A DNA stretch of 64,000 nt from Bacilli bacterium (GTDB lineage: Bacteria > Bacillota_I > Bacilli_A > RFN20 > CAG-826). Location: positions 190 to 64,189 of the forward strand of contig JBGULD010000011.1 of the NCBI GenBank assembly GCA_045114745.1, given 5' to 3'. A model generated the notes under the pieces. It worked only from the letters and a program-made list of their open reading frames with translations. It was not told where the DNA came from and did not search any database. Made by a program: the position numbers and the translations under genes. Below, piece by piece: positions 41,670 through 64,000 of this stretch (the stretch's first letter is position 1; the number at the start of each line of letters is the position of its first letter).

Positions 41670-41746
41670 GCGCCCGTAACTCAGCTGGATAGAGTACCTT
41701 CCTCCTAAGAAGGGAGTCGGACGTTCGAATCGCCTCGGGCGCGCCA
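41670..41746 (+). tRNA. tRNA-Arg (anticodon CCU)
   Basis: GCGCCCG acceptor, TCAGCTGGATAGAG D-arm, anticodon loop cTCCTaa, GGTTCGAATCC T-arm and a 3' CCA that is encoded. Confidence 0.85.
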
Positions 41747-41848: not shown

Positions 41849-41924
41849 GGGTCTGTAGCTCACCTGGGAGAGCGCCTCCATGGCATGGAGGAGGTAGAGG
41901 GTTCGATCCCCTTCAGATCCACCA
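41849..41924 (+). tRNA. tRNA-Ala (anticodon GGC)
   Basis: The GGGTCTG acceptor has a G3-U70 wobble, the Ala identity element. The anticodon loop is aTGGCat, the T-arm is GGTTCGATCCC and CCA is encoded. Confidence 0.85.
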
Positions 41925-52227: not shown

Positions 52228-54324
52228 ATGAAAAAGTTGATATGTTTATTACCCGCATTCTTGTTATGTTTATGTGGGAGCAACTCACTAAGCATCGCTA
52301 AGGCTGATCCAGAGTATTATCAAGACCGGACAAAGTTAGAAGCCGAAGATGTTTTCTCTGGCACAAAAATCAATAATCCTCACGCTTCAAAACAAAAGCT
52401 TATTGATTTAGGTGATTCTAATGAAGTCTCTTTCCATGTCAATATTGAAACAAATACTACTTATGATTTATTAATTGGCTATTTTTCTGGTAGCGCAAAT
52501 CCAAAGATAAAAGTGCAAGTTGATAGTGAATCTCCTCTTTCTCATACATTAGGTTATGACAATGGTTGGGGAGATAATTCCAATAACTATGTCAGCGAAG
52601 AATTAATTGAAGGGTTCACTTTAACCGCAGGTGAACACGATATCAAAATCATCTCCGATAATAGTGGAGATAGCAAATACGTCAATCTCGACTACATCTA
52701 TTTGAATCATTCTAGATTCCAAGCTGATGGTAGCCGTATTCAAGCGGAAGATTGTTATAAATTAGGTCATAGTGTGGAAAAAGAAGGTGGTAACTGTGTT
52801 GATGGCACAACACTTAGTGTTGATGCGGAAGCGGATGCCAAGCCAACATGGAAGATTAATGTTCCAGAAGCTGGTACGTATACTTTCCAAGTCGCGTGTT
52901 TTACTGGTCATGGTGCCACTCCAACATACCGCTTCAACTTCTTGCAAAGTGTAAATACTCCTTATGATTTAGAACTTATCGGTACTGAAGGTGACTGGGA
53001 TAGACATTCTTATTCCTCGAAATCGGAATTTAATATTGATTTAGAAGCTGGTGAACTTGAATTATCTTATCAATATTTAACTCTTGGCTATGCTGATTTT
53101 GATTGGTTTAGATTATTTAAAGTAACACCCACAATCGGGGAAAAGATTCTTGCCGAAGACCACGTCTTTGGTGATGTCAATTTAATGAAATCGCCTAGTA
53201 ATTATCCATTCTTAACCGGACATGCTGCGGAAATTGCTAAAGGTAGAATTGAATTTGATGTCAGTGCTGGCGAAGCGGGTGATTACGATTTATACATCAA
53301 TGGATTTACTGGCACCACAGGTGCATATTTAAAACTAGATTTAAATGGCGATGAATCTAACTTAGTGGTTCCATCATCTTATGCAACTGGCTGGATTGAA
53401 AGTGTTTCCGAAAAGAACCTAATCCCATTTACCGTTTCATTGCAATTAGGAAACAACCATTTCATTATCACCAAAGGTGATGATAGTTTATCCATGAACT
53501 ACATCGATGTCGATTATTTATTAATCACAAGAACCAAGATTGATGAGACTTCTATTCATTTAGATTTTGAAACTCATACATCATTTGATTTAAAAACTAT
53601 TATTCATTTTGTTCCGGAATATACACTTACTCTTTCTGATCCAAGTGTGATTTCCATTTCTTCAAGCAAGATTATTACTCCTTTAAAACATGGTACATGT
53701 ACGATCAGTGTTGATTATCAACTTGATGGCATTGATTTTAATAAGCAAATCCGTGTCGATGTTGATAAACCATCTTATCCAATGCCCGAACAATTAAAAG
53801 GATTTGATACCACAAAAGAATATGATGGCACTGTTCCAAATGTCGATGTCTCTATGCCAGATGGCTGGACATGTCAACAATCCGGTGCTTCCTCAATGGT
53901 GGGCAACTATGTTGTGACATTAACATTCTCCCATACAGATTATCGCGATGTCGTGAAACCAGGTGCAGCGATATTAACAATTACCAAAGGTACATATCGT
54001 GGAAGCGATTTATATGCCGATGATATGAAAGTGGCCTATGATGGTGAACCTCATACCTTAATGGCGTCCGCTCCTGATGGATGGACTATTACTTATAGTA
54101 AGAGTGATTTGATCGAACCAGGAACCTATGACATTGAAGTGACATTCTCTCATCCTGGATATAATCCAGTTGTTAAGACTGCTAAATTAACTATTTATCA
54201 AGCGAAGAAGAACAATACTGGGGCAATAGTTGTCGCAGTAGTGGTTCCTTCTGTCATCGTTATCGGTGTGGCTGCCTTCTTTATCATTAAAAAGATAAAA
54301 GAGAGTCAAGAAGTGATTAAGTAG
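52228..54324 (+). CDS. cell-surface protein with N-terminal signal peptide, several carbohydrate-binding-module-like and Ig-like domains and a C-terminal TM anchor
   Basis: The signal is MKKLICLLPAFLLCLCGS. Repeated ...YVNLDYIYLN / NYIDVDYLLI modules (CBM6/35-like) occur. The C-terminal TM is AIVVAVVVPSVIVIGVAAFFIIKK. Confidence 0.5.
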   Translation: MKKLICLLPAFLLCLCGSNSLSIAKADPEYYQDRTKLEAEDVFSGTKINNPHASKQKLIDLGDSNEVSFHVNIETNTTYDLLIGYFSGSANPKIKVQVDSESPLSHTLGYDNGWGDNSNNYVSEELIEGFTLTAGEHDIKIISDNSGDSKYVNLDYIYLNHSRFQADGSRIQAEDCYKLGHSVEKEGGNCVDGTTLSVDAEADAKPTWKINVPEAGTYTFQVACFTGHGATPTYRFNFLQSVNTPYDLELIGTEGDWDRHSYSSKSEFNIDLEAGELELSYQYLTLGYADFDWFRLFKVTPTIGEKILAEDHVFGDVNLMKSPSNYPFLTGHAAEIAKGRIEFDVSAGEAGDYDLYINGFTGTTGAYLKLDLNGDESNLVVPSSYATGWIESVSEKNLIPFTVSLQLGNNHFIITKGDDSLSMNYIDVDYLLITRTKIDETSIHLDFETHTSFDLKTIIHFVPEYTLTLSDPSVISISSSKIITPLKHGTCTISVDYQLDGIDFNKQIRVDVDKPSYPMPEQLKGFDTTKEYDGTVPNVDVSMPDGWTCQQSGASSMVGNYVVTLTFSHTDYRDVVKPGAAILTITKGTYRGSDLYADDMKVAYDGEPHTLMASAPDGWTITYSKSDLIEPGTYDIEVTFSHPGYNPVVKTAKLTIYQAKKNNTGAIVVAVVVPSVIVIGVAAFFIIKKIKESQEVIK

Positions 54325-54335
54325 GAGGATAGGAT

Positions 54336-55916
54336 ATGGAAAAAGAAGAATTAAAACTATCTAAGAAACAAGAAAAAGAACAAGCAAAGATCTTGGCTAA
54401 AGAAAGGGAACTCCATCATTTAGAGGTCCTTAAAATGGCCAAAGAAGACGCTAAGAAAGAAAAGGTAGCTCCTAAGGATGCTTATATTTCTTTGTGCGAT
54501 GTTAATAAAATCTATCCTAATCACGTTCAAGCTGTTCACCATTTCAATTTAGATATTAAAGAAAAAGAATTTGTTGTATTTGTCGGTCCTTCTGGGTGTG
54601 GTAAATCCACAACAATTAGAATGATCGCGGGTCTAGAAGACATTACTTCCGGTGATTTATTTATCGGTAGTGAATACGCGAATAACTTACCACCAAAAGA
54701 TCGTAAGATTGGTATGGTCTTCCAATCCTATGCTTTATTCCCTCATATGACTGTTTATGAAAATATGGCATTTGGCCTTGAAGTTCTTCATATGAATAAG
54801 GAAGAAATCGATAAAAGAGTGAGATATGCAGGGGATTTATTGCAAATTAGCGAATATTTTGACCGTAAGCCAAACGCTTTATCTGGTGGTCAATGTCAAC
54901 GTGTGGCTTTGGGAAGAGCAATAGTGGCTGATGCAAAAATCTTCTTGATGGACGAACCATTATCTAACTTAGACGCTAAATTAAGAGTGGCGATGCGCAG
55001 TGAAATCGTCAGACTCCATAGAAGTTTAAATACCACGACAATCTATGTTACCCATGACCAGACAGAAGCTATGACTATGGCGGACCGTATTGTCGTTATG
55101 AATAATGGCTATGTGCAACAAATCGGTTCTCCAGCTGAAATCTTTAATGAACCAAAGAATCTTTTTGTGGCGACATTCGTCGGTTCTCCATCTATGAATC
55201 TTCTGAAAGGAAAAGCAATTAAGAATGAATTTGTTTTAGAAGATGGCACCAAATTAGATATGGGTAAAGATTTCTCTGAAAGAATTAAGAAATTCTATGA
55301 GAATGAAATCGCTATCTGCAAACAAAAGAAAGAAGATAATAAAGAGCTTTTCTTAAGAAGACAAAAAGAATCCAAGAGATATCTTAAGATGTTTAAAGGA
55401 GAAGAGATTAATACTAGCGCTGCAAGTAAGTATTTGAAGTGCTTAGATGAAGAAAGTTTAAAACTCATCGGTGTTGATAAGAGCGCGGCCATTGAAGAAA
55501 TTCTTTCTATGAAAGAAAAGAATCAATTTATTGAGAAGGTTGATGCTTTATTAAAAGAATATCTCTATGCCTATCATAGTCTCCATAATCCAGAAATTAT
55601 GAAAGATGTTGATGTCTTAAATAGATTAGAAAAAGTCTTATCTCAAGATGAGATTGAACTCATTTTAGGCATCCGTCCAGAGCATATTAAATTAGGTGAA
55701 AAGAGTAAAGAAAGCATCTCCTTAAAGATTGGTGTTGCGGAATTATTAGGCAGTGAATACTTTATCCATCTTCCATATATGGACAAGGATTTAGTGGCTA
55801 AGGTTACCGCGGATAAAGAAATCAAAGAAGGCGAATCTATCGATGTTAGTTTTGATAAGAAACGCATTCACTTATTTGATCCAATTGGAGAGAATCGTCT
55901 TTCTAGCAAGGAGTAA
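54336..55916 (+). CDS. sugar ABC transporter ATP-binding protein (MalK/MsmK/UgpC family) with N-terminal extension and a ~120-aa insertion in the C-terminal domain
   Basis: Walker A GPSGCGKST, Q-loop, signature LSGGQCQRV, Walker B LMDEPLSNLD, and a MalK-type TOBE C-domain interrupted by a K/E-rich insert. A strong AGGAGG lies 7 nt upstream. Confidence 0.8.
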   Translation: MEKEELKLSKKQEKEQAKILAKERELHHLEVLKMAKEDAKKEKVAPKDAYISLCDVNKIYPNHVQAVHHFNLDIKEKEFVVFVGPSGCGKSTTIRMIAGLEDITSGDLFIGSEYANNLPPKDRKIGMVFQSYALFPHMTVYENMAFGLEVLHMNKEEIDKRVRYAGDLLQISEYFDRKPNALSGGQCQRVALGRAIVADAKIFLMDEPLSNLDAKLRVAMRSEIVRLHRSLNTTTIYVTHDQTEAMTMADRIVVMNNGYVQQIGSPAEIFNEPKNLFVATFVGSPSMNLLKGKAIKNEFVLEDGTKLDMGKDFSERIKKFYENEIAICKQKKEDNKELFLRRQKESKRYLKMFKGEEINTSAASKYLKCLDEESLKLIGVDKSAAIEEILSMKEKNQFIEKVDALLKEYLYAYHSLHNPEIMKDVDVLNRLEKVLSQDEIELILGIRPEHIKLGEKSKESISLKIGVAELLGSEYFIHLPYMDKDLVAKVTADKEIKEGESIDVSFDKKRIHLFDPIGENRLSSKE

Positions 55917-55918
55917 TT

Positions 55919-57541
55919 ATGCAACTACAAGATTTAAGTTTTAAATTACCAACCGACCACATCTCATTAGATGATGGAGTCACCCTTTCCGTTGAAGTTT
56001 TTTCCTTCCATAACCTTTATTACCCAAAGGATCATTCCTATCAAAAAGAAGGAAATAAGTATGTTTCTAAACAAGTAATTTGGGGTGGAAGTGAACCCAC
56101 CAAAGAAGGTTTCGTCTCTCTTGAAGTGAATGAAAATGATGGTGTCTATTCTTTTGATTTAGAGGCCAAATTAGATGAAAAAGTCCGCGAAACTAAGCTA
56201 AAATTCGAAAATTTGCCACTTGGTAACTTAATTTCTGCGATTAACGGAGAGCATGTTACTAACGAAAGAGGAGAGGTGTTATTCTATCCAGAAGCCTGGA
56301 GGGGAATCGTCACTCCTTTATTAGTTTTTAAGATTAGTGAAAACCGTTATTTATATTTCCGCAGTCTCGATTACAAAGTCAGACAAAAGAGATTCTTCAT
56401 CAAAAAGACAAGTGAAAACACGATGATGGTGGAACTTCTTTTTGAAGAAAGTGGCAAGGACATGACTAATTCCGTCAAAGTTCCAACATGGGAATATGGA
56501 TATGTATCTAATAAAGAGGATATATATAAGAAACATCTCTCATTCTTAGAAAAGATATATCACTATGAAAGATATGAAGATAGGAAAGATGTTCCTAATT
56601 GGTTTAGAGATGTCTCCTTGATTGTTATTTGCCACATGCAACATTGGACTGGACATATTTTCCATACTTATCAAGAAGCATTAAATGACTTCAAAGAATT
56701 AGCGAAATATATTGATCCAAAGAGAATTCTCTTCTATATCCCAGGTTGGGAAGGTAGATATTATTACAAATATGGTAACTTCACCGCGGATGAAAGAATG
56801 GGTGGAGAAAGAGAATTAAAGAAGTTCGTTGATGGTGTTCATGAATTAGGTGGACACGTCTTAAGCATGGTTAGTCTAACCATCGCTAATAAAGAATTAC
56901 CAGATTATGAGAAGTGGGGCAAAGATAGTGAATTTGTCATTTGTAGTGGTTCCTCATTCAAACACGGTTCCGTGGACTGGGATGGATCTAGGCATTATGA
57001 TCATAACACAAATGCACAATTAAACCCCGCCGCACCAGGCTGGCAAAAGAAAATTATTGAAGAGATTTCTCGTAGCACTTTGGATTATGGCTTTGATGGC
57101 ATCTTTTTGGACATCTCAGCGTGTTATCATAACGACTTAAGGTATGAAATCGCCAAAGGTGTTTTTGATGTCTGTAATGCCTTAAATAAGAAATTTAAAG
57201 ATTTCTTAATCGCTGGTGAATGTCTATACGATGGAATTATGATGGCCATGCCTTTATATCAATGTGGTCACACTGATGGTTTGATGCATTATCACGATTC
57301 TACTTATGAGGATATGTTTAGTAATTATGCTCGAGAATTTGCCCATCTTTGTTTAGGTGATTTCTCTCGTGGTAGTACTGGTACTCATGAGCTAGGCACC
57401 AATAGCACTGATGTAAAAGCGCCATATCGTCGCGGAATTATTCCGACACTGTGTTTAGTAAAAGAAACAATTAAGGATTCCTTACCAGAAGTTAAAGAAG
57501 TTATTGAGGACGCGAAAAGATACGCGAAAGAATATTTGTAA
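55919..57541 (+). CDS. hypothetical protein, putative TIM-barrel glycoside hydrolase-like
   Basis: The ORF is 540 aa and sits last in the sugar-utilisation operon. GFDGIFLDISACYHND resembles (beta/alpha)8 glycosidase active-site strands. No family could be assigned from sequence alone. Confidence 0.35.
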   Translation: MQLQDLSFKLPTDHISLDDGVTLSVEVFSFHNLYYPKDHSYQKEGNKYVSKQVIWGGSEPTKEGFVSLEVNENDGVYSFDLEAKLDEKVRETKLKFENLPLGNLISAINGEHVTNERGEVLFYPEAWRGIVTPLLVFKISENRYLYFRSLDYKVRQKRFFIKKTSENTMMVELLFEESGKDMTNSVKVPTWEYGYVSNKEDIYKKHLSFLEKIYHYERYEDRKDVPNWFRDVSLIVICHMQHWTGHIFHTYQEALNDFKELAKYIDPKRILFYIPGWEGRYYYKYGNFTADERMGGERELKKFVDGVHELGGHVLSMVSLTIANKELPDYEKWGKDSEFVICSGSSFKHGSVDWDGSRHYDHNTNAQLNPAAPGWQKKIIEEISRSTLDYGFDGIFLDISACYHNDLRYEIAKGVFDVCNALNKKFKDFLIAGECLYDGIMMAMPLYQCGHTDGLMHYHDSTYEDMFSNYAREFAHLCLGDFSRGSTGTHELGTNSTDVKAPYRRGIIPTLCLVKETIKDSLPEVKEVIEDAKRYAKEYL

Positions 57542-57607
57542 AAGTCTTCCCGCAAGGAAGATTTTTTCTTTAATTCAAATAAAGATAGATTTTATAATTA
57601 TAAATAC

Positions 57608-58522
57608 ATGAAAAAGATTAGTAAGAAAACCATTGATGCTCTCGTTTATATTGGTTCAAGTCTTATTATTGTCCTTGTTTTAGTCTTTGCCTTATTTGCC
57701 CTAAGTGATGCGACAAATGAAGGAGGATATTTAAGACCTTTATTAGCAGCAACTTTCATTTGCTTATCTTTATCAAGACTTCCTCTTGCGGTTAACGCGA
57801 TTAAAAACAATCCAAGCAAGATAGTGATGTGGAAGAACTTTGCTTTTTCATTTGTCTATCTCGTCTGTGGAATCATTATTATTTTTTCACCCACTAATTA
57901 TGCTTTGTATGGTGTAATAAGCGGCATTTATTTATTTACTATCGTGGCTAATCGAGTCTGTTCTTGCATCCAAAAGCCGCATGCTTTAAATATTGTTATC
58001 AATGCATTCTTGGCCACATTATTTTTCCTTCTCGGCTTAGTATTCATGACTTCCAAAGAAACATTCAATGTCTTCGTTGTTGCTTCTTTAGTGGTTATCA
58101 TGTTCACTTCTATCTTTGATATCTTAAGCTTTGCTTTCTCACAAATTCGCTTAAAAGGTCTTATCAAGATTGTGCAAAAGACATATGTCTTACAAATCCT
58201 TTATGGCTTATTAATTATGGTTCTTTCCTTCTCTGTTTATTTCATGATCATGGAAGAAGGAATTACTAATTATGGTGATGCTTTGTGGTATTCGTTCGCC
58301 ATTATTACCACAATCGGATTTGGTGATGTCGTAGTTACCGACACTATCGGTCGTATCCTTTCTGTCATTCTCGGTTGTTATGGCATTATTGTTGTCGCTG
58401 CAATTACCAGTGTCATTGTTAATTACTATAACGAAACAAAAAATGATGAAAAGAATGAATCCGAAAAAGAAATAGAAGAAAATAAACAGCCGGAAGAGGT
58501 TGACAAAAAAGAAGAAAAATAA
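57608..58522 (+). CDS. potassium channel-family membrane protein (ion_trans_2-like) with Lys/Glu-rich C-terminal tail
   Basis: Six hydrophobic segments and the selectivity-filter-like sequence ITTIGFGDVVVTD (T-x-G-F-G-D). The terminator CCACTGCATAGCAGTGG+T6 follows at 58530-58553. Confidence 0.55.
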   Translation: MKKISKKTIDALVYIGSSLIIVLVLVFALFALSDATNEGGYLRPLLAATFICLSLSRLPLAVNAIKNNPSKIVMWKNFAFSFVYLVCGIIIIFSPTNYALYGVISGIYLFTIVANRVCSCIQKPHALNIVINAFLATLFFLLGLVFMTSKETFNVFVVASLVVIMFTSIFDILSFAFSQIRLKGLIKIVQKTYVLQILYGLLIMVLSFSVYFMIMEEGITNYGDALWYSFAIITTIGFGDVVVTDTIGRILSVILGCYGIIVVAAITSVIVNYYNETKNDEKNESEKEIEENKQPEEVDKKEEK

Positions 58523-58550
58523 GAAAACCACTGCATAGCAGTGGTCTTTT

Positions 58551-60197
58551 TTATCCGTTAAATGATGATTTCAAAGGACATGTTCTATTAAATACGAGAT
58601 GTTCCTTTGTGGATTCTTTATCGGTACAGAAGTAACCGGTTCTGATGAATTGGAATCTTTCTAATGGTTTTGTATCTTTTAAGGATTCTTCAACATATCC
58701 TTCTAATTTAATCCAGGAATTAGGATTTAATCTTTGTAAGAAGTCCAAACCTTTTGTTTCTTCGGTTTCATCAAACACTAATGGTTCGTATAAATTGAAG
58801 GTCGCTGGTAAAGCAGTAGTGGCTTCGACGTAGTGAATTGTGCCATTTGGTTTTCTTCCTTCAAAACCAATTCCCGATTTGGTTTCTGGATCATAGGTGC
58901 AATGTAATTCGATAATCTTGCCATTTTCATCTTTCTTGACGCTTTCGCATTTGATGAAATAGGCATGCATCAATCTCACCTCATCACCTAAAGATAATCT
59001 CTTCCATTTTCGATTTGGTTTTTCTTCGATGAAGTCTTCTTCTTCAATATAGAGATATTTGCCAAAGGCAATTTGTCGATTTCCTAGTGCTTCATTTTCC
59101 ATATTGTTAGGAGCGTCGCAATATTCAATCTTGCCTTCTGGATAGTTATCGATAACCACTTTTAAGGGGTGGAGAATTGCCATTGGGCGTTTAGCGATTA
59201 GCTTTTGCTCTTCTCTTAAGAAATAATCTAAGTTATCCGCATTAGTAGTGGAGTTAATTCTTGATAATCCAGTGTAGAGAATAAAGCTCTTAATGCTTTC
59301 CGCAGTGAAACCTTTTCTCTTTAATCCCACCAAAGTGGGCATTCTGGGATCGTCGTAACCGGTGACATATCCACCTTCCACTAATTGACGGAGATATCTT
59401 TTACTCATCACGGTGTTGGTGATATTTAATCTTCCCCATTCATATTGATGTGGAACATGCTCCATTTCACATTTTTCAATAAACCAATCATATAAGACAC
59501 GATGGTTATCATATTCTAATGAACAAAGTGAATGCGTCACTCCTTCAAAGGCATCTTGAAGTGGGTGAGCAAAGTCATACATTGGATAGATGCACCATTT
59601 ATTCCCTTGGCGGTGGTGGGTAACATGTAATATACGATACATAACAGGGTCACGCATATTGATGTTTGGAGAAGACATATCAATCTTCGCTCTTAAGGTT
59701 TTTTCACCATTCGCGTATTTACCTGCGCGCATTTCCTCAAATAATTTAAGGTTTTCTTCGATACTTCTATTGCGCCAAGGAGATTCTTTTCCTGGTTCAG
59801 TTAAAGTGCCACGGTATTCCGTCATCTCTTCTGGAGATAAATCATCAACATAAGCGAGTCCTTTTTTAATTAATAAAATAGCTTTCTCATAAGTCTTTTC
59901 GAAATAGTCGCTTCCAAAGAAGACATTTTTTGGTGTATAACCTAACCATTTTAAGTCGTCAATGATAGCGTCGACATATTCCGCACCTTCATTGACTGGG
60001 TTAGTGTCATCAAATCTTAAATTAGTGTAACCACCGAAAGCTTTTGCGAGTTCGAAGTCATTAACAATGGCTCTAGCATGGCCGATATGTAAATAGGCAT
60101 TTGGTTCAGGAGGAAAACGAGTGACGATTTGTTTAACACGCCCCTCTTCTAGATCCTTTTCCATAATTGTTTTGATAAAATTGTTAATTTCTTCCAT
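58551..60197 (-). CDS. glnS: glutamine--tRNA ligase
   Basis: Collinear with E. coli GlnRS: the HIGH motif (RFPPEPNAYLHIGHARA), LRFDDTNP, NKWCIYPMYDF, the VMSKR (KMSKS-type) motif and the C-terminal anticodon-binding beta-barrels. Confidence 0.9.
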   Translation of the reverse strand: MEEINNFIKTIMEKDLEEGRVKQIVTRFPPEPNAYLHIGHARAIVNDFELAKAFGGYTNLRFDDTNPVNEGAEYVDAIIDDLKWLGYTPKNVFFGSDYFEKTYEKAILLIKKGLAYVDDLSPEEMTEYRGTLTEPGKESPWRNRSIEENLKLFEEMRAGKYANGEKTLRAKIDMSSPNINMRDPVMYRILHVTHHRQGNKWCIYPMYDFAHPLQDAFEGVTHSLCSLEYDNHRVLYDWFIEKCEMEHVPHQYEWGRLNITNTVMSKRYLRQLVEGGYVTGYDDPRMPTLVGLKRKGFTAESIKSFILYTGLSRINSTTNADNLDYFLREEQKLIAKRPMAILHPLKVVIDNYPEGKIEYCDAPNNMENEALGNRQIAFGKYLYIEEEDFIEEKPNRKWKRLSLGDEVRLMHAYFIKCESVKKDENGKIIELHCTYDPETKSGIGFEGRKPNGTIHYVEATTALPATFNLYEPLVFDETEETKGLDFLQRLNPNSWIKLEGYVEESLKDTKPLERFQFIRTGYFCTDKESTKEHLVFNRTCPLKSSFNG

Positions 60198-60621
60198 AAG
60201 AACGCCCTCGGAGATATTTTACACTAGTAAAAGCATTGCTCAACAAAAATATTAATTGTTCAAATGAAAAATAATGGTGATGACCAAGTCAAAAAATGAA
60301 CTTTCTTGATCAATTTCAAAGATAAGTTTTTATTATTTTTAAGAGGAAATAATTAATATCAAAAGAACATTTTTAAGTAGTAGTGGGCCTTAATAAAACA
60401 ATAAAAAATAAGAAAAAATGAAAAATATACTATGTATCTTAGAAAATTGTTGACCAAAAAATAATTTTGGAAATAAAATAATTGTGCAGAACAAAAGCGA
60501 TAAAGGAAGTCCCATCCTTATTGGCGACAGGTGATGCAAAAATATAACTATCATCCATTCAATTTTAAATAACGAAAAAGTTGAATGATTTTTGTCGTTT
60601 ATAAGGAGAAATAAGAATTTT

Positions 60622-61551
60622 ATGAAAAAATCAAGAGTTATTATTCCTGCACTTGGTATTTTGGTTCTCTCTACCGCTGCTTCTGTTACAGGCACAGTCG
60701 CTTGGTTCACTGCTAATACAAAATATAACACCACAGTTGGTGACTTCGCAGTCGTGAAAACAAACGATGACCTAGTCTGTATCCAAGCTGCTGGCGTTGG
60801 TACCAATGTTAGCGCTGCTGATACACCAAACAACACCATTACAGTTAAATCTAATTATGAATTAACAGATGGTTCATTCGATCACACCGAAAACAATATC
60901 ATTGCACCAGATAGTTCAGGTCAAACAGTTGGTTCCGTTACCGCTTTAGGTAGCGCGAATGAAACAAATATGAAACGTGCTACATACATGGTCAGCACAA
61001 CCGAACACACCGTCTATACAGCCTTTACATGGACTATGACATTCAAAGTCAAATTCGGTGGTGTTAATAGAAACTATGGTTTATATATGGACCATACCGC
61101 TGATCACTCAGCAGTCACAAAGAAAAATGGCGATGCCATCGCTGCTACAGATACAGCCAAAGGCTTCAGATTAGCATTAGTTGGCCAAACCGCTACTTAT
61201 AGTAATACCAGAGTTTGGGCTGATAACCAAACATCTGCAAACTGCCAATTCGTTGATGGTTTAGCAGTTGGTGCTACCTTAGCAGGTACAGCTTATGCTT
61301 CACCTATCTTAATCGATAGCGCATACAATACCGCTTTACCAACAGCTGGTTCACCAGAATCAACAAGTACTGCTTCTGCTCGTCCAGACTACTTAGGTAA
61401 ATTCGTCTTCCAAGCCAATACAGAAGTTTCCTTGGTTTATAAAGCTGTTGCTTGGTTCGAAGGTACAGATCCAACCATCGTTAATACTGCTACAGTCTTC
61501 GATACAGTGACCGCTGCAATGCACTTTGAAGCGATTCCATTATCTGACTAA
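60622..61551 (+). CDS. secreted protein, TasA/camelysin-like (SipW-cognate-type signal peptide), paralog 1 of 4
   Basis: ATG at 60622 gives MKKSRVIIPALGILVLSTAASVTGTVAWFTANT, an n-region and h-region followed by a G-T-x-A-W-F motif (compare TasA GGGTWAAFND and camelysin GGGTFAYFSD). The body is Thr/Ala-rich and beta-rich. A W-F-E-G-x-D motif near the C-terminus is shared with paralogs 2-3. Confidence 0.5.
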   Translation: MKKSRVIIPALGILVLSTAASVTGTVAWFTANTKYNTTVGDFAVVKTNDDLVCIQAAGVGTNVSAADTPNNTITVKSNYELTDGSFDHTENNIIAPDSSGQTVGSVTALGSANETNMKRATYMVSTTEHTVYTAFTWTMTFKVKFGGVNRNYGLYMDHTADHSAVTKKNGDAIAATDTAKGFRLALVGQTATYSNTRVWADNQTSANCQFVDGLAVGATLAGTAYASPILIDSAYNTALPTAGSPESTSTASARPDYLGKFVFQANTEVSLVYKAVAWFEGTDPTIVNTATVFDTVTAAMHFEAIPLSD

Positions 61552-61571
61552 TATTAACTAAAGATGATTAA

Positions 61572-61605
61572 ATCCTCGCCTACTCGCGGGGATTTTTTAT
61601 TTTTC
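61572..61605 (+). terminator. rho-independent terminator after paralog 1
   Basis: ATCCTCGC-ctactc-GCGGGGAT is an 8-bp stem (one G-U pair) followed by T6AT5. Confidence 0.7.
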
Positions 61606-61626
61606 GAAAAAATTTTTCAAAAAGTA

Positions 61627-61656
61627 TTGCCACTTGTTAGTAAATGTGATAATTTG
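61627..61656 (+). promoter_or_regulatory. candidate sigma-A promoter for the riboswitch-led transcript
   Basis: TTGCCA (-35), a 17-nt spacer, then an extended -10 TGaTAATTT. The predicted start site is near 61663. Confidence 0.35.
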
Positions 61657-61662
61657 TATTCG

Positions 61663-61798
61663 AGCAAAAAGCACACCCATAGAAATATGGGGTCGCAAAA
61701 CTACAGGGTCTTATATAAAATAAGATAGCCAGTTGCCTTAAGAGGAACAATCCTCGCCAATGTATTGGATGATAGGCAACTGGCGTTTTTGTTTCTCT
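61663..61798 (+). ncRNA. candidate c-di-GMP-I (GEMM) riboswitch with intrinsic-terminator expression platform
   Basis: GCAAAAAGCACACC-CAUA-GAAA-UAUGGGG-UCGCAAAAC-UACAGGG parallels the Vc2 aptamer core GGGCAAACC-AUUC-GAAA-GAGUGGG-ACGCAAAGCC-UCCGG (a GNRA-capped hairpin followed by the (A/U)CGCAAA(G/A)C junction). A second hairpin UCUUAU-auaaa-AUAAGA follows. The 3' strand UAGCCAGUUGCC then pairs with GGCAACUGGC (61775-61784), giving a 10-bp terminator stem followed by U5GU3. Confidence 0.5.
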
Positions 61799-61842
61799 AA
61801 CGGGACACACGCTCCAAACCTTCGGAGCACAATTATTCATCT

Positions 61843-62664
61843 ATGTACGAATTACAATACGTAAAAAAACGGAAAAGAAGAAAATGGGTTGCGATCGGTG
61901 GTGGAATTGCATTGATCGGAGTTTCATCATTAGCAATCGTGGCATTCTTAGGCCGATTCGTTGGGACATTCACCGTATCGTTAAATACCGGGAATGTGGA
62001 ATTGGCGCTCAGTGATTCGTCAAGCTTCACTAGAAGTGAGTCATACTTGAGAATTAACGATATACCGAATTTTCATGAATGTACTTACTCAAGTCTTCCA
62101 AAAGCTGAAGTATTAGACAGTGATACAACAGACTACTTAACTGGAGCGACTTACAAACCTGATGGAGGAGTTGATGCACTCGACTACTTCAAATACACGT
62201 TCTTCGTGAGAAACGTTGGTAAGACCGCTGCTAGCTACACATTAAAAGTCAACATCACTGATAATAAGGCAGGCGAAGGATCAAGAACTTTAGATGATAC
62301 GTTACGCGTTATGCTCTATGAAAATGGCGCTGACACAGAAGATCACAACTTCAAAGTCTATGCCAAACGCGCAGCAACACATCACTTTGATGAAAACGGA
62401 GAAGTTAGCTTCAAAGAGCCGATCTCCATTAGTGAAGACAAGGCAACACCCTACGAACCATTCGCAGGATACGCTGAGGAATTTGAATCATCGAATGTCA
62501 TTACAACAATCACGGTAACAAATTTCGCAGTAGGTGAGACTAGAAGGTACACATTAGTAAATTGGCTTGAAGGATATGACCTTCAATCAAATAACTTAGA
62601 TGAAGCACCTAAAGGTGCAAGAATAAAATTAGGAGTTGAAATTAACGCTTATGAAAACCAATAA
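61843..62664 (+). CDS. secreted protein, divergent member of the TasA/camelysin-like paralog family (paralog 2)
   Basis: The signal is MYELQYVKKRKRRKWVAIGGGIALIGVSSLAIVAFLGRFVGTFTVSL. A C-terminal N-W-L-E-G-Y-D motif is shared with paralogs 1 and 3. It is the first gene downstream of the candidate riboswitch. Confidence 0.45.
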   Translation: MYELQYVKKRKRRKWVAIGGGIALIGVSSLAIVAFLGRFVGTFTVSLNTGNVELALSDSSSFTRSESYLRINDIPNFHECTYSSLPKAEVLDSDTTDYLTGATYKPDGGVDALDYFKYTFFVRNVGKTAASYTLKVNITDNKAGEGSRTLDDTLRVMLYENGADTEDHNFKVYAKRAATHHFDENGEVSFKEPISISEDKATPYEPFAGYAEEFESSNVITTITVTNFAVGETRRYTLVNWLEGYDLQSNNLDEAPKGARIKLGVEINAYENQ

Positions 62665-63631
62665 GAAAAATATTATTATTCCAGCATTAATGATGGCCGT
62701 CGGCTTAGGTTTAGTCGGTTCCATCTCTGGTACCGTTGCTTGGTATCAATATTCTACAAGAGTTACAACCTCTTACATTGGCGCTTCCGCAAAATGTACA
62801 GAGAGTTTACAAGTCAGCTTAACTGGCGTTGACAATGAATTTGTTAGTGAATTAGAAACAGCTGACATTATTGCTGCTGCTACTGCCAATGATACAGATG
62901 GTAGTGATTTCCAACCTGTTACATCCGCTGCTGCACACGCTACAGCTGTTGTCTCTGGTGCACAAACATACGCATTTAAAGGTCACCCAATGTATCAAAA
63001 CTTTGCATATGACACATGGCAAGATGCTCCAGCTAACTCATATTTACAATATGATTTATACTTCAGAGTTTTAGATGTTGATGGTGCTGCCACAAAATCT
63101 TACCTTGCTAAAAAATTATATTTTGAAGACTTCGTGATTAACTTCACAGGCACAAATTCTGGTGCTAGCGCAACAGCCTTCAAAGATGCATTAAGATTCC
63201 AATTTGACCAAGTCAATGGTACTGCTAAATCCACATTATTATCCAACACCGCTCGTTCAGCTATGAAATTAGGCGGAAGCTTAGATCTTAATGGTGATGG
63301 CGAATTTGACCAAACCCATGCTTATGAATGGGAAACCGCTACTGATGCAGTTTATGGTAATGAATCATTAACTCAAACCACAGCCGCTTTTGCCGATTAT
63401 AAAGGCACACTTACCAATGGTAAATTAGTTGCTGGTTCTAATGAACTCGGCACAACAGTTGCTGGCACATATTCTGCTGCTTCCGCATTACACTTCAAAG
63501 TCACAATTTGGCTTGAAGGTTGGGATGCCACAGGCACAACCGCTGCTACAAGCATTTGGGACGCCAAAGATTACATTGGCTCATTCCAAATTGGTATGAC
63601 ATTTGGTGTCACACCTTACGGCGAAGAATAA
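62651..63631 (+). CDS. secreted protein, TasA/camelysin-like, paralog 3
   Basis: ATG at 62651 gives MKTNKKNIIIPALMMAVGLGLVGSISGTVAWYQYSTRVTTSY. The C-terminal motif is VTIWLEGWDATG. An in-frame TTG at 62636 is the listed ORF start; AGGAG at 62631 lies 15 nt upstream of the ATG. Confidence 0.5.
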   Translation: MKTNKKNIIIPALMMAVGLGLVGSISGTVAWYQYSTRVTTSYIGASAKCTESLQVSLTGVDNEFVSELETADIIAAATANDTDGSDFQPVTSAAAHATAVVSGAQTYAFKGHPMYQNFAYDTWQDAPANSYLQYDLYFRVLDVDGAATKSYLAKKLYFEDFVINFTGTNSGASATAFKDALRFQFDQVNGTAKSTLLSNTARSAMKLGGSLDLNGDGEFDQTHAYEWETATDAVYGNESLTQTTAAFADYKGTLTNGKLVAGSNELGTTVAGTYSAASALHFKVTIWLEGWDATGTTAATSIWDAKDYIGSFQIGMTFGVTPYGEE

Positions 63632-63733
63632 TTTAACAAAACAAAAACACAAAAAACTTGTTTATAGATCTTATTAATTATTAATAAAATCTTTAAACTT
63701 ACTTAAAATAATAATTAGGGGAGGAGGCTTAAG

Positions 63734-64000
63734 ATGAAGTCTAACAAACGCGTTAGCTGGTTTCTCGTTGGATTCAGTTTATTGACCTTTGCGTCATTTA
63801 TTGGTGCAACGACAGGCACATTAGCATGGTATGCATATTCAACACGTGTATCTATGTCTTATATGGGCACATCTGTTGCAAAAACTGAACAACTTCAAAT
63901 CGGTCTTGTTGACGATGGTGCTACTGCACGCATCTCAGATGAGACAATCGCGACATATCATTATGATCGTGATAGTGATGACATTGTTTGGGCCCCTGCC
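63734..64000 (+). CDS. secreted protein, TasA/camelysin-like, paralog 4 (partial, runs off right edge)
   Basis: A strong SD AGGGGAGGAGG precedes it. The product begins MKSNKRVSWFLVGFSLLTFASFIGATTGTLAWYAYSTRVSMSYMGTS, whose N-terminus is near-identical in pattern to paralog 3. Confidence 0.5.
   Translation, partial: MKSNKRVSWFLVGFSLLTFASFIGATTGTLAWYAYSTRVSMSYMGTSVAKTEQLQIGLVDDGATARISDETIATYHYDRDSDDIVWAPA

What the first reader, a model, noticed from the sequence alone, without database searches (positions are those of the whole stretch)
61627..61842. Candidate c-di-GMP-I (GEMM) riboswitch with terminator platform inside a secreted-protein paralog array
A terminator (61572-61605) and a likely promoter precede a leader (61663-61798) that closely resembles the c-di-GMP-I aptamer core. 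It has a GAAA-capped hairpin (CCCAUA/UAUGGG) followed by UCGCAAAAC, compared with Vc2 ACGCAAAGC, and then a second hairpin. Its 3' strand AGCCAGUUGCC is exactly complementary to GGCAACUGGC in a 10-bp terminator stem with a U-run, the textbook aptamer/terminator mutual-exclusion layout. A second messenger would then control read-through into three genes for TasA/camelysin-like secreted proteins, which would be a c-di-GMP-gated matrix or fibre system in a Mollicutes/Erysipelotrichia-like genome. The aptamer call rests on my recall of the Vc2/GEMM consensus, not on a covariance-model hit.
Basis: partly seen in the sequence, partly recalled or inferred. Interest (0 to 1): 0.8.

Follow-up and report, generated by a model that had tools for sequence, protein, structure and literature searches.

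The report
c-di-GMP riboswitch controlling fibre-protein operon
This is a real c-di-GMP-class riboswitch that most likely turns on, by blocking a transcription terminator, a conserved operon of TasA-like surface-fibre proteins in uncultured rumen bacteria; the switch is a known type, but the operon and part of its leader RNA are undescribed.

Summary
Rfam's c-di-GMP-I model (RF01051) matches window 61660-61740 (+) at 64.9 bits against a gathering score of 35. The same aptamer lies about 90-175 nt upstream of the orthologous gene in all 23 related rumen Bacilli/Erysipelotrichaceae genomes that include the gene start.

The aptamer's 3' strand (61728-61738) is the 5' arm of an 11-bp terminator stem (partner 61774-61784, U-run 61786-61794). 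Ligand binding should therefore prevent termination, making this an ON switch.

- The G20-equivalent ligand-contact base is A here and in 23 of 27 aptamers. In the literature this substitution permits cGAMP binding as well as c-di-GMP.
- A covarying helix (61741-50 with 61789-98) is topologically incompatible with the terminator.
- Two invariant blocks, GGAUGAUAGG and GGGACA, remain unexplained.

Verdict: a new member of a known riboswitch class in an interesting, uncharacterised setting.

The parts
61570..61605 (+). Intrinsic terminator of the upstream paralog gene U (60622-61551). It isolates the riboswitch transcription unit.
   Evidence: 10-bp stem at 61570-61595 with 5 GC pairs, followed by TTTATTTTTC.
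61627..61655 (+). Sigma-70-type promoter: -35 TTGCCA (61627-32), 17-nt spacer, extended -10 TGaTAATTT (61647-55). The predicted transcription start is about 61661-61663.
   Evidence: Read. Equivalent TTGnnn / TAnnnT pairs lie at the same offset in the homologous loci. The consensus scan did not list it, so this rests on inference.
61660..61740 (+). c-di-GMP-I (GEMM-I) aptamer. Hairpin 1 is 61671-61696 with a GAAA loop at 61682-85. Hairpin 2 is 61699-61734. A61670 corresponds to Vc2 G20, A61697 to A47 and C61736 to C92.
   Evidence: RF01051 at 64.9 bits against a gathering score of 35; the same hit in 23 of 23 orthologous loci; compensatory changes in hairpin 1.
61728..61794 (+). Terminator of the expression platform. 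The 5' arm (61728-38) is shared with aptamer hairpin 2, C92 and P1. The 3' arm is 61774-84 and the U-run is 61786-94. The 35-nt loop holds two small hairpins (61742-55 and 61757-68).
   Evidence: minimum-free-energy fold. RNAalifold keeps this stem in 21 of 21 leaders; paralogous riboswitch copies have the same stem with a small loop.
61741..61798 (+). Helix PX: S1 AGAGGAACAA (61741-50) pairs with S2 UUGUUUCUCU (61789-98). It crosses the terminator stem, so the two cannot both form fully, and it can form only in read-through transcripts.
   Evidence: cognate duplex energy -10.1 against -5.2 kcal/mol for non-cognate pairs, 0 of 10000 permutations as low; covariation score 0.524 against 0.298 for shuffles (0 of 500) and at most 0.328 for slid partners. 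PX appears spontaneously when the aptamer is enforced.
61767..61776 (+). Invariant block GGAUGAUAGG. The last three bases belong to the terminator 3' arm; the first seven are unexplained.
   Evidence: invariant or nearly invariant in 21 of 21 leaders; no conserved Watson-Crick partner.
61802..61807 (+). Invariant block GGGACA between helix PX and the last hairpin. Its function is unknown. In silico, GGG can pair with CCU at 61736-38.
   Evidence: invariant. (CCU/GGG pairing in the aptamer-enforced fold). (no conserved partner for the whole block). It is absent from the paralogous riboswitch copies.
61811..61828 (+). Terminal hairpin GCUCC/GGAGC. Its structure is conserved but its sequence is not. 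The 3' arm holds the only Shine-Dalgarno-like GGAG, 15 nt before the ATG.
   Evidence: a hairpin at this position in 21 of 21 leaders.
61843..62664 (+). Gene A (273 aa): an N-terminal transmembrane helix followed by a beta-sandwich. It is the first gene under the riboswitch.
62651..63631 (+). Gene B (326 aa): a signal peptide ending in GTVAWYQYSTR, a TasA-like beta-sandwich, an LDLNGDG..D loop and a WLEGWD motif.
63734..64000 (+). Gene C, the third paralog, cut by the window end (388 aa in the near-identical contig L025). It is preceded by a strong Shine-Dalgarno sequence, GGGGAGGAGG.
60622..61551 (+). Gene U, a paralog with a GTVAWF signal motif that lies upstream of and outside the riboswitch unit. 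It has its own promoter-like site (60450-60479) and its own terminator.
   Evidence: U-like gene upstream of the riboswitch in most loci.

Best explanation
Window 61660-61740 encodes a functional aptamer of the c-di-GMP-I (GEMM-I) class at the 5' end of an mRNA that starts at about 61661. The proposed mechanism is as follows.

- Without ligand, the aptamer's 3' strand (61728-38) pairs with 61774-84. That strand comprises the outer half of hairpin 2, the C92-equivalent base and the short P1. The pairing forms an 11-bp terminator followed by a U-run, and transcription stops near 61790.
- With the cyclic dinucleotide bound (most likely c-di-GMP), that strand is held in the aptamer. The terminator cannot form, and RNA polymerase reads into genes A, B, C and D.
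- By synteny and tight gene spacing, it probably also reads into the AAA+ ATPase, p858, the SipW-like p340 and an EAL phosphodiesterase.

The products are TasA-superfamily-like subunits and their presumed assembly factors. High c-di-GMP would therefore switch on production of a surface or matrix fibre, and the co-transcribed EAL enzyme could provide negative feedback.

In read-through RNA a second, covarying helix (PX, 61741-50 with 61789-98) replaces the terminator. Together with the invariant GGAUGAUAGG and GGGACA blocks and a conserved terminal hairpin, PX probably adds a further step specific to this leader. That step could be mRNA processing, stabilisation, translation control or protein binding.

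Shown: aptamer membership, the overlap with the terminator, conservation of all these elements, and the gene content.
Inferred: the ligand, the ON direction, the extent of the operon, the fibre function, and the role of PX.
For: -: RF01051 at 64.9 bits against a gathering score of 35, full-length match.
- RF01051 hits (44-66 bits) immediately upstream of the gene A ortholog in 23 of 23 loci from different rumen MAG species.
- compensatory changes in hairpin 1 (up to 12 of 21 sequences per pair), and the terminator stem kept in 21 of 21.
- the terminator is the minimum-free-energy fold. At 61740 the aptamer fold lies within 0.5 kcal/mol of the minimum. The two folds share 61728-38.
- two further copies of the aptamer in related genomes precede other TasA-like paralogs and use the same shared-strand terminator with a simple loop. 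This shows the basic design is a terminator ON switch.
- a contig 97.3% identical to the window carries EAL and GGDEF+EAL genes downstream on the same strand, with no convincing intervening terminator.
- GGDEF genes with the canonical ND..GH..GD motif lie next to the locus in seven relatives; an eighth, L008, has N at the last position.
- conserved synteny A-B-C-D-AAA-p858.
- the TasA fibre is the best structural match for both A and B.
- support for helix PX.
Against: - No ligand-binding or termination experiment exists.
- The base equivalent to Vc2 G20 is A. Per PMC6140456, this substitution lets the aptamer accept cGAMP as well as c-di-GMP.
- The canonical 11-nt tetraloop receptor is missing from hairpin 2 (alignment: deletions at model positions CUAA and AuG).
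- The terminator loop is unusually large at 35 nt, and in a few homologs the U-run is poor (L002, L014).
- Operon extent is inferred from spacing only, and promoter-like sites exist between B and C.
- No GGDEF motif lies within the 64-kb window itself.
Confidence: 0.85

Rival explanations
1. The aptamer is a GEMM-I-fold sensor whose physiological ligand is 3',3'-cGAMP, or which responds to both cGAMP and c-di-GMP. The reason would be that the G20-equivalent base is A, as in GEMM-Ib riboswitches.
For:: A at this position in the window and in 23 of 27 aptamers of this clade. (PMC6140456): the Vc2 G20A mutant binds both ligands, and natural A20 aptamers such as the C. beijerinckii Cbe 1-2 aptamer are bispecific.
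Against: -: the neighbouring GGDEF enzymes carry the canonical Asp (ND..GH..GD), not the Ser/Thr of cGAMP-making Hypr GGDEFs.
- EAL enzymes, which degrade c-di-GMP, are in the same gene block.
- No CD-NTase was seen in the DNA held.
- A20 aptamers still bind c-di-GMP tightly through a protonated adenine.
- Four sister aptamers have G20 with otherwise identical cores.
Confidence: 0.1
2. The main regulatory output of this leader is not termination. It would instead be a post-transcriptional event organised by helix PX, GGAUGAUAGG, GGGACA and the terminal hairpin. Candidates are endonucleolytic processing that leaves a hairpin-protected 5' end, binding of a GGA-recognising protein such as CsrA, or a second small-ligand pocket acting in tandem. 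The terminator-like stem would then be the ligand-free alternative fold.
For: -: these elements are conserved or covary in all gene-A leaders.
- they are absent from the simple-terminator copies of the same aptamer, so plain termination control does not need them.
- the invariant blocks have no conserved pairing partner, which points to tertiary or protein contacts.
- Gene A lacks a well-spaced Shine-Dalgarno sequence, whereas gene C has a strong one.
Against: - The stem plus U-run is a good intrinsic terminator in most leaders.
- No Rfam family matches the extra region beyond a weak RefB11 hit (E 0.05).
- No covariation links S2 or S1 with the translation start region (p about 0.3).
- No processing enzyme or binding protein could be identified with these tools.
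Confidence: 0.25
3. The match is a decayed or chance aptamer-like sequence with no regulatory role.
For: None beyond the absence of experiments.
Against:: E 2e-10; the aptamer is conserved at the same position in 23 of 23 species whose proteins are only 43-55% identical; compensatory changes.
Confidence: 0.01

Closest known systems
Vc2 and other c-di-GMP-I (GEMM-I, RF01051) riboswitches
   Same: Same two-hairpin fold with a GNRA tetraloop on hairpin 1, the CGCAAA junction with the intercalating A47, and the GCC tail with C92. It passes the Rfam gathering score by 30 bits.
   Different: A replaces G20. The 11-nt tetraloop receptor is absent and hairpin 2 is short. Vc2 comes from a Gram-negative bacterium and sits in a different gene context.
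Firmicute c-di-GMP ON riboswitches upstream of surface-structure genes. From my own knowledge, not tested here: C. difficile Cdi2_4 (class II) before pilA1, and B. thuringiensis Bc2 (class I) before the collagen-adhesion gene cap.
   Same: Same logic: high c-di-GMP prevents terminator formation and switches on a pilus, adhesin or matrix gene.
   Different: The regulated genes here are a sequence-orphan TasA-like family with an AAA+ ATPase. The leader also carries an extra covarying helix and invariant blocks that, to my knowledge, are not described for those switches.
GEMM-Ib cGAMP riboswitches of Geobacter (for example Gs1761 and the pilM ON switch; PMC6140456, PMC9262584)
   Same: A at the G20-equivalent position, and ON switching through a terminator.
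   Different: The host has canonical GGDEF and EAL enzymes and no Hypr GGDEF signature. Sister aptamers with G20 are interchangeable. The host is a Firmicute-type rumen bacterium.
B. subtilis tapA-sipW-tasA matrix operon and archaeal TasA-like fibres (PMC9674648, PMC9245690, PMC12518558)
   Same: The best structural match of A and B is the TasA fibre subunit. There are several paralogs, an N-terminal signal peptide with a G-T-x-A-W-F/Y motif resembling TasA's, a candidate SipW-like peptidase, and a Ca-binding-type loop reminiscent of cannulae.
   Different: No Peptidase_M73 Pfam match. The operon adds an AAA+ ATPase and an 858-aa coiled-coil protein. tasA is controlled by SinR and AbrB, not by a riboswitch (my own knowledge).

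Membership tests
c-di-GMP-I riboswitch (Rfam RF01051) | The covariance model score reaches the curated gathering score | tested here: met
   64.9 bits against 35, model positions 1-87 of 87. In E-value mode the clan sibling RF03167 scores 58.3 against its gathering score of 59, but the window has A, not G, at the position that defines that variant.
c-di-GMP-I riboswitch (Rfam RF01051) | Two hairpins supported by covariation in homologs, with a GNRA loop on the first | tested here: met
   hairpin 1 pairs show 3-12 double changes; loops are GAAA, GUGA, GCGA, GUAA, GAGA or GCAA in 27 of 27 aptamers.
c-di-GMP-I riboswitch (Rfam RF01051) | Ligand-contact bases G20, A47 and C92 (Vc2 numbering; PMC6140456, PMC5888326) | tested here: inconclusive
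   The A47 equivalent (A61697) and the C92 equivalent (C61736) are present. The G20 equivalent is A61670. Mapping to Vc2 numbering rests on the Rfam consensus and my reading of the structure papers.
c-di-GMP-I riboswitch (Rfam RF01051) | Binds c-di-GMP with high affinity and selectivity | not testable with these tools
   This needs in-line probing, ITC or a gel shift.
Terminator-based ON riboswitch | An intrinsic terminator whose 5' arm overlaps an aptamer strand needed for ligand binding | tested here: met
   61728-38 is shared; the stem is conserved in 21 of 21 leaders; the same design appears in paralogous copies.
Terminator-based ON riboswitch | Ligand-dependent read-through | not testable with these tools
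   This needs transcription termination assays or a reporter.
GEMM-Ib cGAMP riboswitch | A at position 20 together with a cGAMP synthase (Hypr GGDEF or DncV-type) in the host | tested here: inconclusive
   A20 is present. Ten neighbouring GGDEF ORFs have Asp (nine) or Asn (one), never Ser or Thr. Whole genomes could not be scanned.
TasA/camelysin family (Pfam Peptidase_M73) | Sequence match to the family profile | tested here: not met
   no Pfam or NCBIfam hit for U, A, B or C, nor for 23 B homologs; no PDB sequence hit.
TasA superfamily (fold level, donor-strand fibres) | Beta-sandwich fold closest to TasA and archaeal TasA-like fibre subunits | tested here: met
TasA superfamily (fold level, donor-strand fibres) | A dedicated SipW-type signal peptidase in the operon | tested here: inconclusive
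   p340 hits the SipW equivalog NF046067 only weakly (E 2e-4, 21 bits against a cutoff of 190). SMDP and THR motifs were seen by eye. No Pfam or PDB support.

The most novel reading that the evidence does not exclude
The gene-A leader may be more than an aptamer plus terminator. Helix PX, the invariant GGAUGAUAGG and GGGACA blocks and the terminal hairpin could form a second functional RNA module. That module could be a processing site, a protein-binding site or a second ligand pocket, integrated with the c-di-GMP decision. It would gate a previously unrecognised, widespread fibre-assembly system of uncultured rumen Bacilli, made of TasA-like subunits, a membrane AAA+ ATPase and a divergent SipW.
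Probability: 0.25. Interest if true: 0.7.

Novelty: new member of a known kind. Interest (0 to 1): 0.5.

Why it matters
The riboswitch gives a functional handle on a large family of unannotated proteins. Gene A has 559 homologs, the ATPase has at least 8000 relatives, and none carries more than a generic name such as 'hypothetical protein' or 'AAA family ATPase'. The family is found in uncultured rumen and gut Bacilli.

Being wired to c-di-GMP marks these proteins as a lifestyle (attachment or matrix) system. The fold matches point to donor-strand TasA-like fibres.

This also extends c-di-GMP riboswitch control to TasA-type matrix fibres. The paper searches here found no such link.

The dominance of A at the G20 position in a clade with canonical GGDEF and EAL enzymes is a natural test case for how position 20 relates to ligand specificity. 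The extra conserved leader elements are a candidate for a second regulatory layer.

Tried and rejected
- Pfam and NCBIfam scans of the paralogs found nothing.
- A PDB sequence search with the gene B profile gave no hits. The same search with p340 gave only noise.
- A six-frame motif search for GGDEF, HD-GYP and PilZ in the window found nothing. The answer came from related loci and the near-identical contig instead.
- The metagenome scan with GGATGAWAGG-N(18-45)-TGGGACA was too unspecific. It returned 120 loci, of which only 2 (L032 and L077, both rumen) carried the real leader.
- RNAalifold on MAFFT alignments did not find helix PX because of register shifts. PX was confirmed instead by a cognate versus non-cognate duplex test and a CM-guided alignment.
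- I looked for pairing partners of GGGACA and GGAUGAU within the leader and the first 200 nt of the coding region. None is conserved.
- I tested covariation of S1 and S2 with the translation start region and found none. A simple anti-SD/anti-anti-SD model is therefore rejected.
- A leader peptide starting at the invariant AUG in GGAUGAUAGG is rejected, because 1-nt indels between homologs shift the frame.
- A hammerhead-like reading of GAUGA is rejected. The core lacks CUGA, and Rfam gives no ribozyme hit even at E up to 10.
- The weak RefB11 hit (E 0.05) is treated as chance.
- A full pseudoknot of the terminator stem with PX is rejected on geometry. The connecting loops of 2 nt and 1-6 nt cannot span 11-bp and 10-bp helices (inference).

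Full report
**Observation**

- A terminator for the upstream gene: stem 61570-61595 plus a T-run.
- A promoter-like TTGCCA at 61627-32, a 17-nt spacer, then TGaTAATTT at 61647-55.
- A GAAA-capped hairpin, CCCAUA/UAUGGG (61676-91), followed by UCGCAAAAC.
- A second hairpin whose 3' strand, GCCAGUUGCCU (61728-38), is complementary to AGGCAACUGGC (61774-84), followed by GUUUUUGUUU.

The unconstrained fold of 61655-61800 forms that stem at -49.1 kcal/mol, with z = -5.8 against dinucleotide shuffles.

**The decisive test**

Scanning the whole 64-kb window against all 4227 Rfam families at gathering thresholds gives two hits only: a tRNA, and RF01051 (c-di-GMP-I) at 61660-61740 (+). The RF01051 hit scores 64.9 bits against a gathering score of 35, with E 2e-10 and full model coverage.

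**Comparative evidence**

The first gene downstream (A, 61843-62664, 273 aa) has 559 homologs. None has a functional name or a Pfam domain, and the few that are labelled come from rumen 'Bacilli bacterium' MAGs.

A scan of one genome per species recovered 24 loci from rumen MAGs labelled Bacilli or Erysipelotrichaceae. In every one of the 23 loci that contains the gene's 5' end, RF01051 hits (44-66 bits) lie about 90-175 nt upstream of the ortholog. The proteins are only 43-55% identical.

Alignment of 21 leaders shows many compensatory changes in hairpin 1, up to 12 sequences per pair. RNAalifold keeps the terminator stem in all of them. A -35/-10 pair sits at a constant distance upstream. 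Chance or decay can be excluded.

**Mechanism**

The terminator's 5' arm (61728-38) is at the same time three parts of the aptamer: the outer 3' strand of hairpin 2, the C92-equivalent base C61736, and the 3' strand of the short P1 helix. The two folds are therefore mutually exclusive.
- When only the aptamer has been transcribed (to 61740), the aptamer fold is within 0.5 kcal/mol of the minimum.
- Once the 3' arm and U-run are out (61793), the terminator fold is favoured by 14 kcal/mol in the absence of ligand.

Ligand binding should therefore prevent termination, which makes this an ON switch.

Three further RF01051 copies in related genomes support this. Two precede other paralogs of the same protein family and use the same shared-strand terminator with a small loop. 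One precedes a GGDEF gene.

**Ligand**

The window itself has no GGDEF motif. A metagenomic contig that is 97.3% identical to window 52650-64000 (L025) shows what lies beyond the window end. After A and B come C, D, an AAA_5 ATPase, an 858-aa protein, a 340-aa protein, an EAL protein (PF00563, E 2e-64), a PNP_UDP_1 protein and a 1013-aa GGDEF+EAL protein. All are on the same strand and tightly spaced, with no convincing terminator between them.

Eight related loci carry GGDEF genes 1.5-5 kb upstream of the riboswitch. The guanine-specifying motif is ND..GH..GD in nine of the ten GGDEF ORFs and ends in N in one. It is never the Ser/Thr of cGAMP-making Hypr enzymes. c-di-GMP is thus the expected ligand.

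It is A61670 here, and it is A in 23 of 27 aptamers of this clade and G in 4. Published work shows that G20A lets the Vc2 aptamer bind both c-di-GMP (through a protonated adenine) and cGAMP. It also shows that some natural A20 aptamers are bispecific (PMC6140456; G20/A47/C92 roles also in PMC5888326). Specificity therefore has to be measured. The canonical 11-nt tetraloop receptor is also absent (alignment).

**What is regulated**

The block A-B-C-D-AAA-p858 is syntenic in all loci, and the ATPase is the most conserved gene at 69-80% identity. A U-like paralog usually lies upstream, outside the riboswitch unit.

U, B, C and D share two motifs: an N-terminal signal peptide ending in G-(T/S)-x-A-W-(F/Y), and a C-terminal W/Y-(L/M/F)-E-G-(W)-D. 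A has a transmembrane anchor instead of the signal peptide.

No Pfam, NCBIfam or PDB sequence match exists. AlphaFold2 models give the following.

Foldseek gives probability 0.98 for TasA. B has an invariant LDLNGDG..D loop, reminiscent of the Ca-dependent assembly reported for cannulae (PMC12518558). p340 has a weak SipW match (E 2e-4).

'TasA-like fibre system' is therefore supported at fold level, but membership of the Pfam camelysin family is not. Paper searches found no report linking c-di-GMP riboswitches to TasA-type genes.

**Extra leader anatomy**

Beyond aptamer and terminator, all gene-A leaders share four further elements.
- An invariant GGAUGAUAGG (61767-76) just 5' of and overlapping the terminator 3' arm.
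- An invariant GGGACA (61802-07).
- A structurally conserved but sequence-variable hairpin (61811-28) that holds the only SD-like GGAG, 15 nt from the ATG.
- A long-range helix, PX, between S1 (61741-50, inside the terminator loop) and S2 (61789-98, overlapping the end of the U-run).

PX is supported by three results.
- Cognate S1/S2 duplexes average -10.1 kcal/mol against -5.2 for non-cognate pairs, with 0 of 10000 permutations as low.
- A CM-guided alignment of 24 distinct sequences gives 8 of 9 pairs with double changes. The covariation score is 0.524, against 0.298 for shuffles (0 of 500) and at most 0.328 for slid partners.
- PX appears spontaneously when the aptamer is enforced on the full leader, together with CCU 61736-38 pairing with GGG 61802-04.

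PX crosses the terminator stem, and the connecting loops are too short for both to exist in full (inference). PX therefore belongs to the read-through state, and it can form only after the termination decision.

These elements are absent from the simple-terminator copies of the aptamer, and no conserved pairing partner exists for the invariant blocks. They are therefore not needed for the basic switch and remain unexplained. Processing with a hairpin-protected 5' end, binding of a GGA-recognising protein, or a second pocket are hypotheses only. No Rfam family covers the region.

**Verdict**

This is a genuine c-di-GMP-I-class ON riboswitch: a new member of a known class that any Rfam-based annotation would find. 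It is interesting for three reasons: its conserved coupling to an uncharacterised TasA-like fibre operon in uncultured rumen Bacilli, its A20 binding-site variant, and an unexplained conserved extension of the expression platform.

Noticed in passing
window 61767-61776 and 61802-61807: Two blocks, GGAUGAUAGG and GGGACA, are invariant in 21 of 21 homologous leaders. They have no conserved Watson-Crick partner and are absent from paralogous copies of the riboswitch.
   Followed up: partly
window 61741-61750 with 61789-61798: A covarying helix (PX) crosses the terminator stem, so it can exist only in read-through RNA. Its role is unknown.
   Followed up: yes
window 61670: A stands at the position equivalent to Vc2 G20. 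It is A in 23 and G in 4 of 27 aptamers of this clade, which raises the question of c-di-GMP versus cGAMP specificity.
   Followed up: partly
L025 13347-20981 (contig 97.3% identical to the window, beyond the window end): The operon appears to continue into a membrane AAA_5 ATPase (69-80% identical across species), an 858-aa protein with a long E/K/R coiled-coil and a proline/glutamate-rich (PEP-type) region, a 340-aa protein with a weak SipW-like match, an EAL phosphodiesterase, and then a GGDEF+EAL protein. The co-transcribed EAL gene could give negative feedback.
   Followed up: partly
L013 77-156 (+): A c-di-GMP-I aptamer with G20 lies directly upstream of a 501-aa GGDEF protein gene. This would be a riboswitch-controlled cyclase, a possible feed-forward or feedback loop.
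   Followed up: no
L010 413-488 (-) and L023 2971-3049 (-): Further c-di-GMP-I copies with simple terminators precede other paralogs of the same fibre-protein family (signal motifs GSTAWF and GAIAWF).
   Followed up: partly
L020 5751-5960: This leader has a partial duplication. The aptamer 3' end GAUAGCCAGCAACC is followed about 55 nt later by a second GAUAGCCAGUUGCC, and its RF01051 score is the lowest at 44.3 bits.
   Followed up: no
window 62651-63631 (gene B), residues about 211-220: An invariant LDLNGDG..D loop of the EF-hand or Ca-binding type occurs in the TasA-like subunit. An invariant W-L-E-G-W motif lies near the C-terminus and is shared by all paralogs.
   Followed up: no
window 61681-61832: Weak match (20.6 bits, E 0.05 in a 341-nt search) to Rfam RF02848, the Enterococcus sRNA RefB11. 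It shares an AUGAU(U)AGC element and a hairpin arrangement with the expression platform. Probably chance.
   Followed up: no
window 41670-41746 and 41849-41924: Two tRNA genes, tRNA-Arg(CCU) and tRNA-Ala(GGC), on the + strand.
   Followed up: no
L014 2166-2264 (-): A THF riboswitch (RF01831, 69.9 bits) lies in a related genome near the locus.
   Followed up: no
window 52228-57541: Just upstream of the locus lie a CBM6/CBM35 surface protein with a C-terminal transmembrane anchor, a MalK-like ABC ATPase and a DUF6259 glycoside-hydrolase-like protein. This fits a plant-polysaccharide-degrading rumen organism.
   Followed up: no
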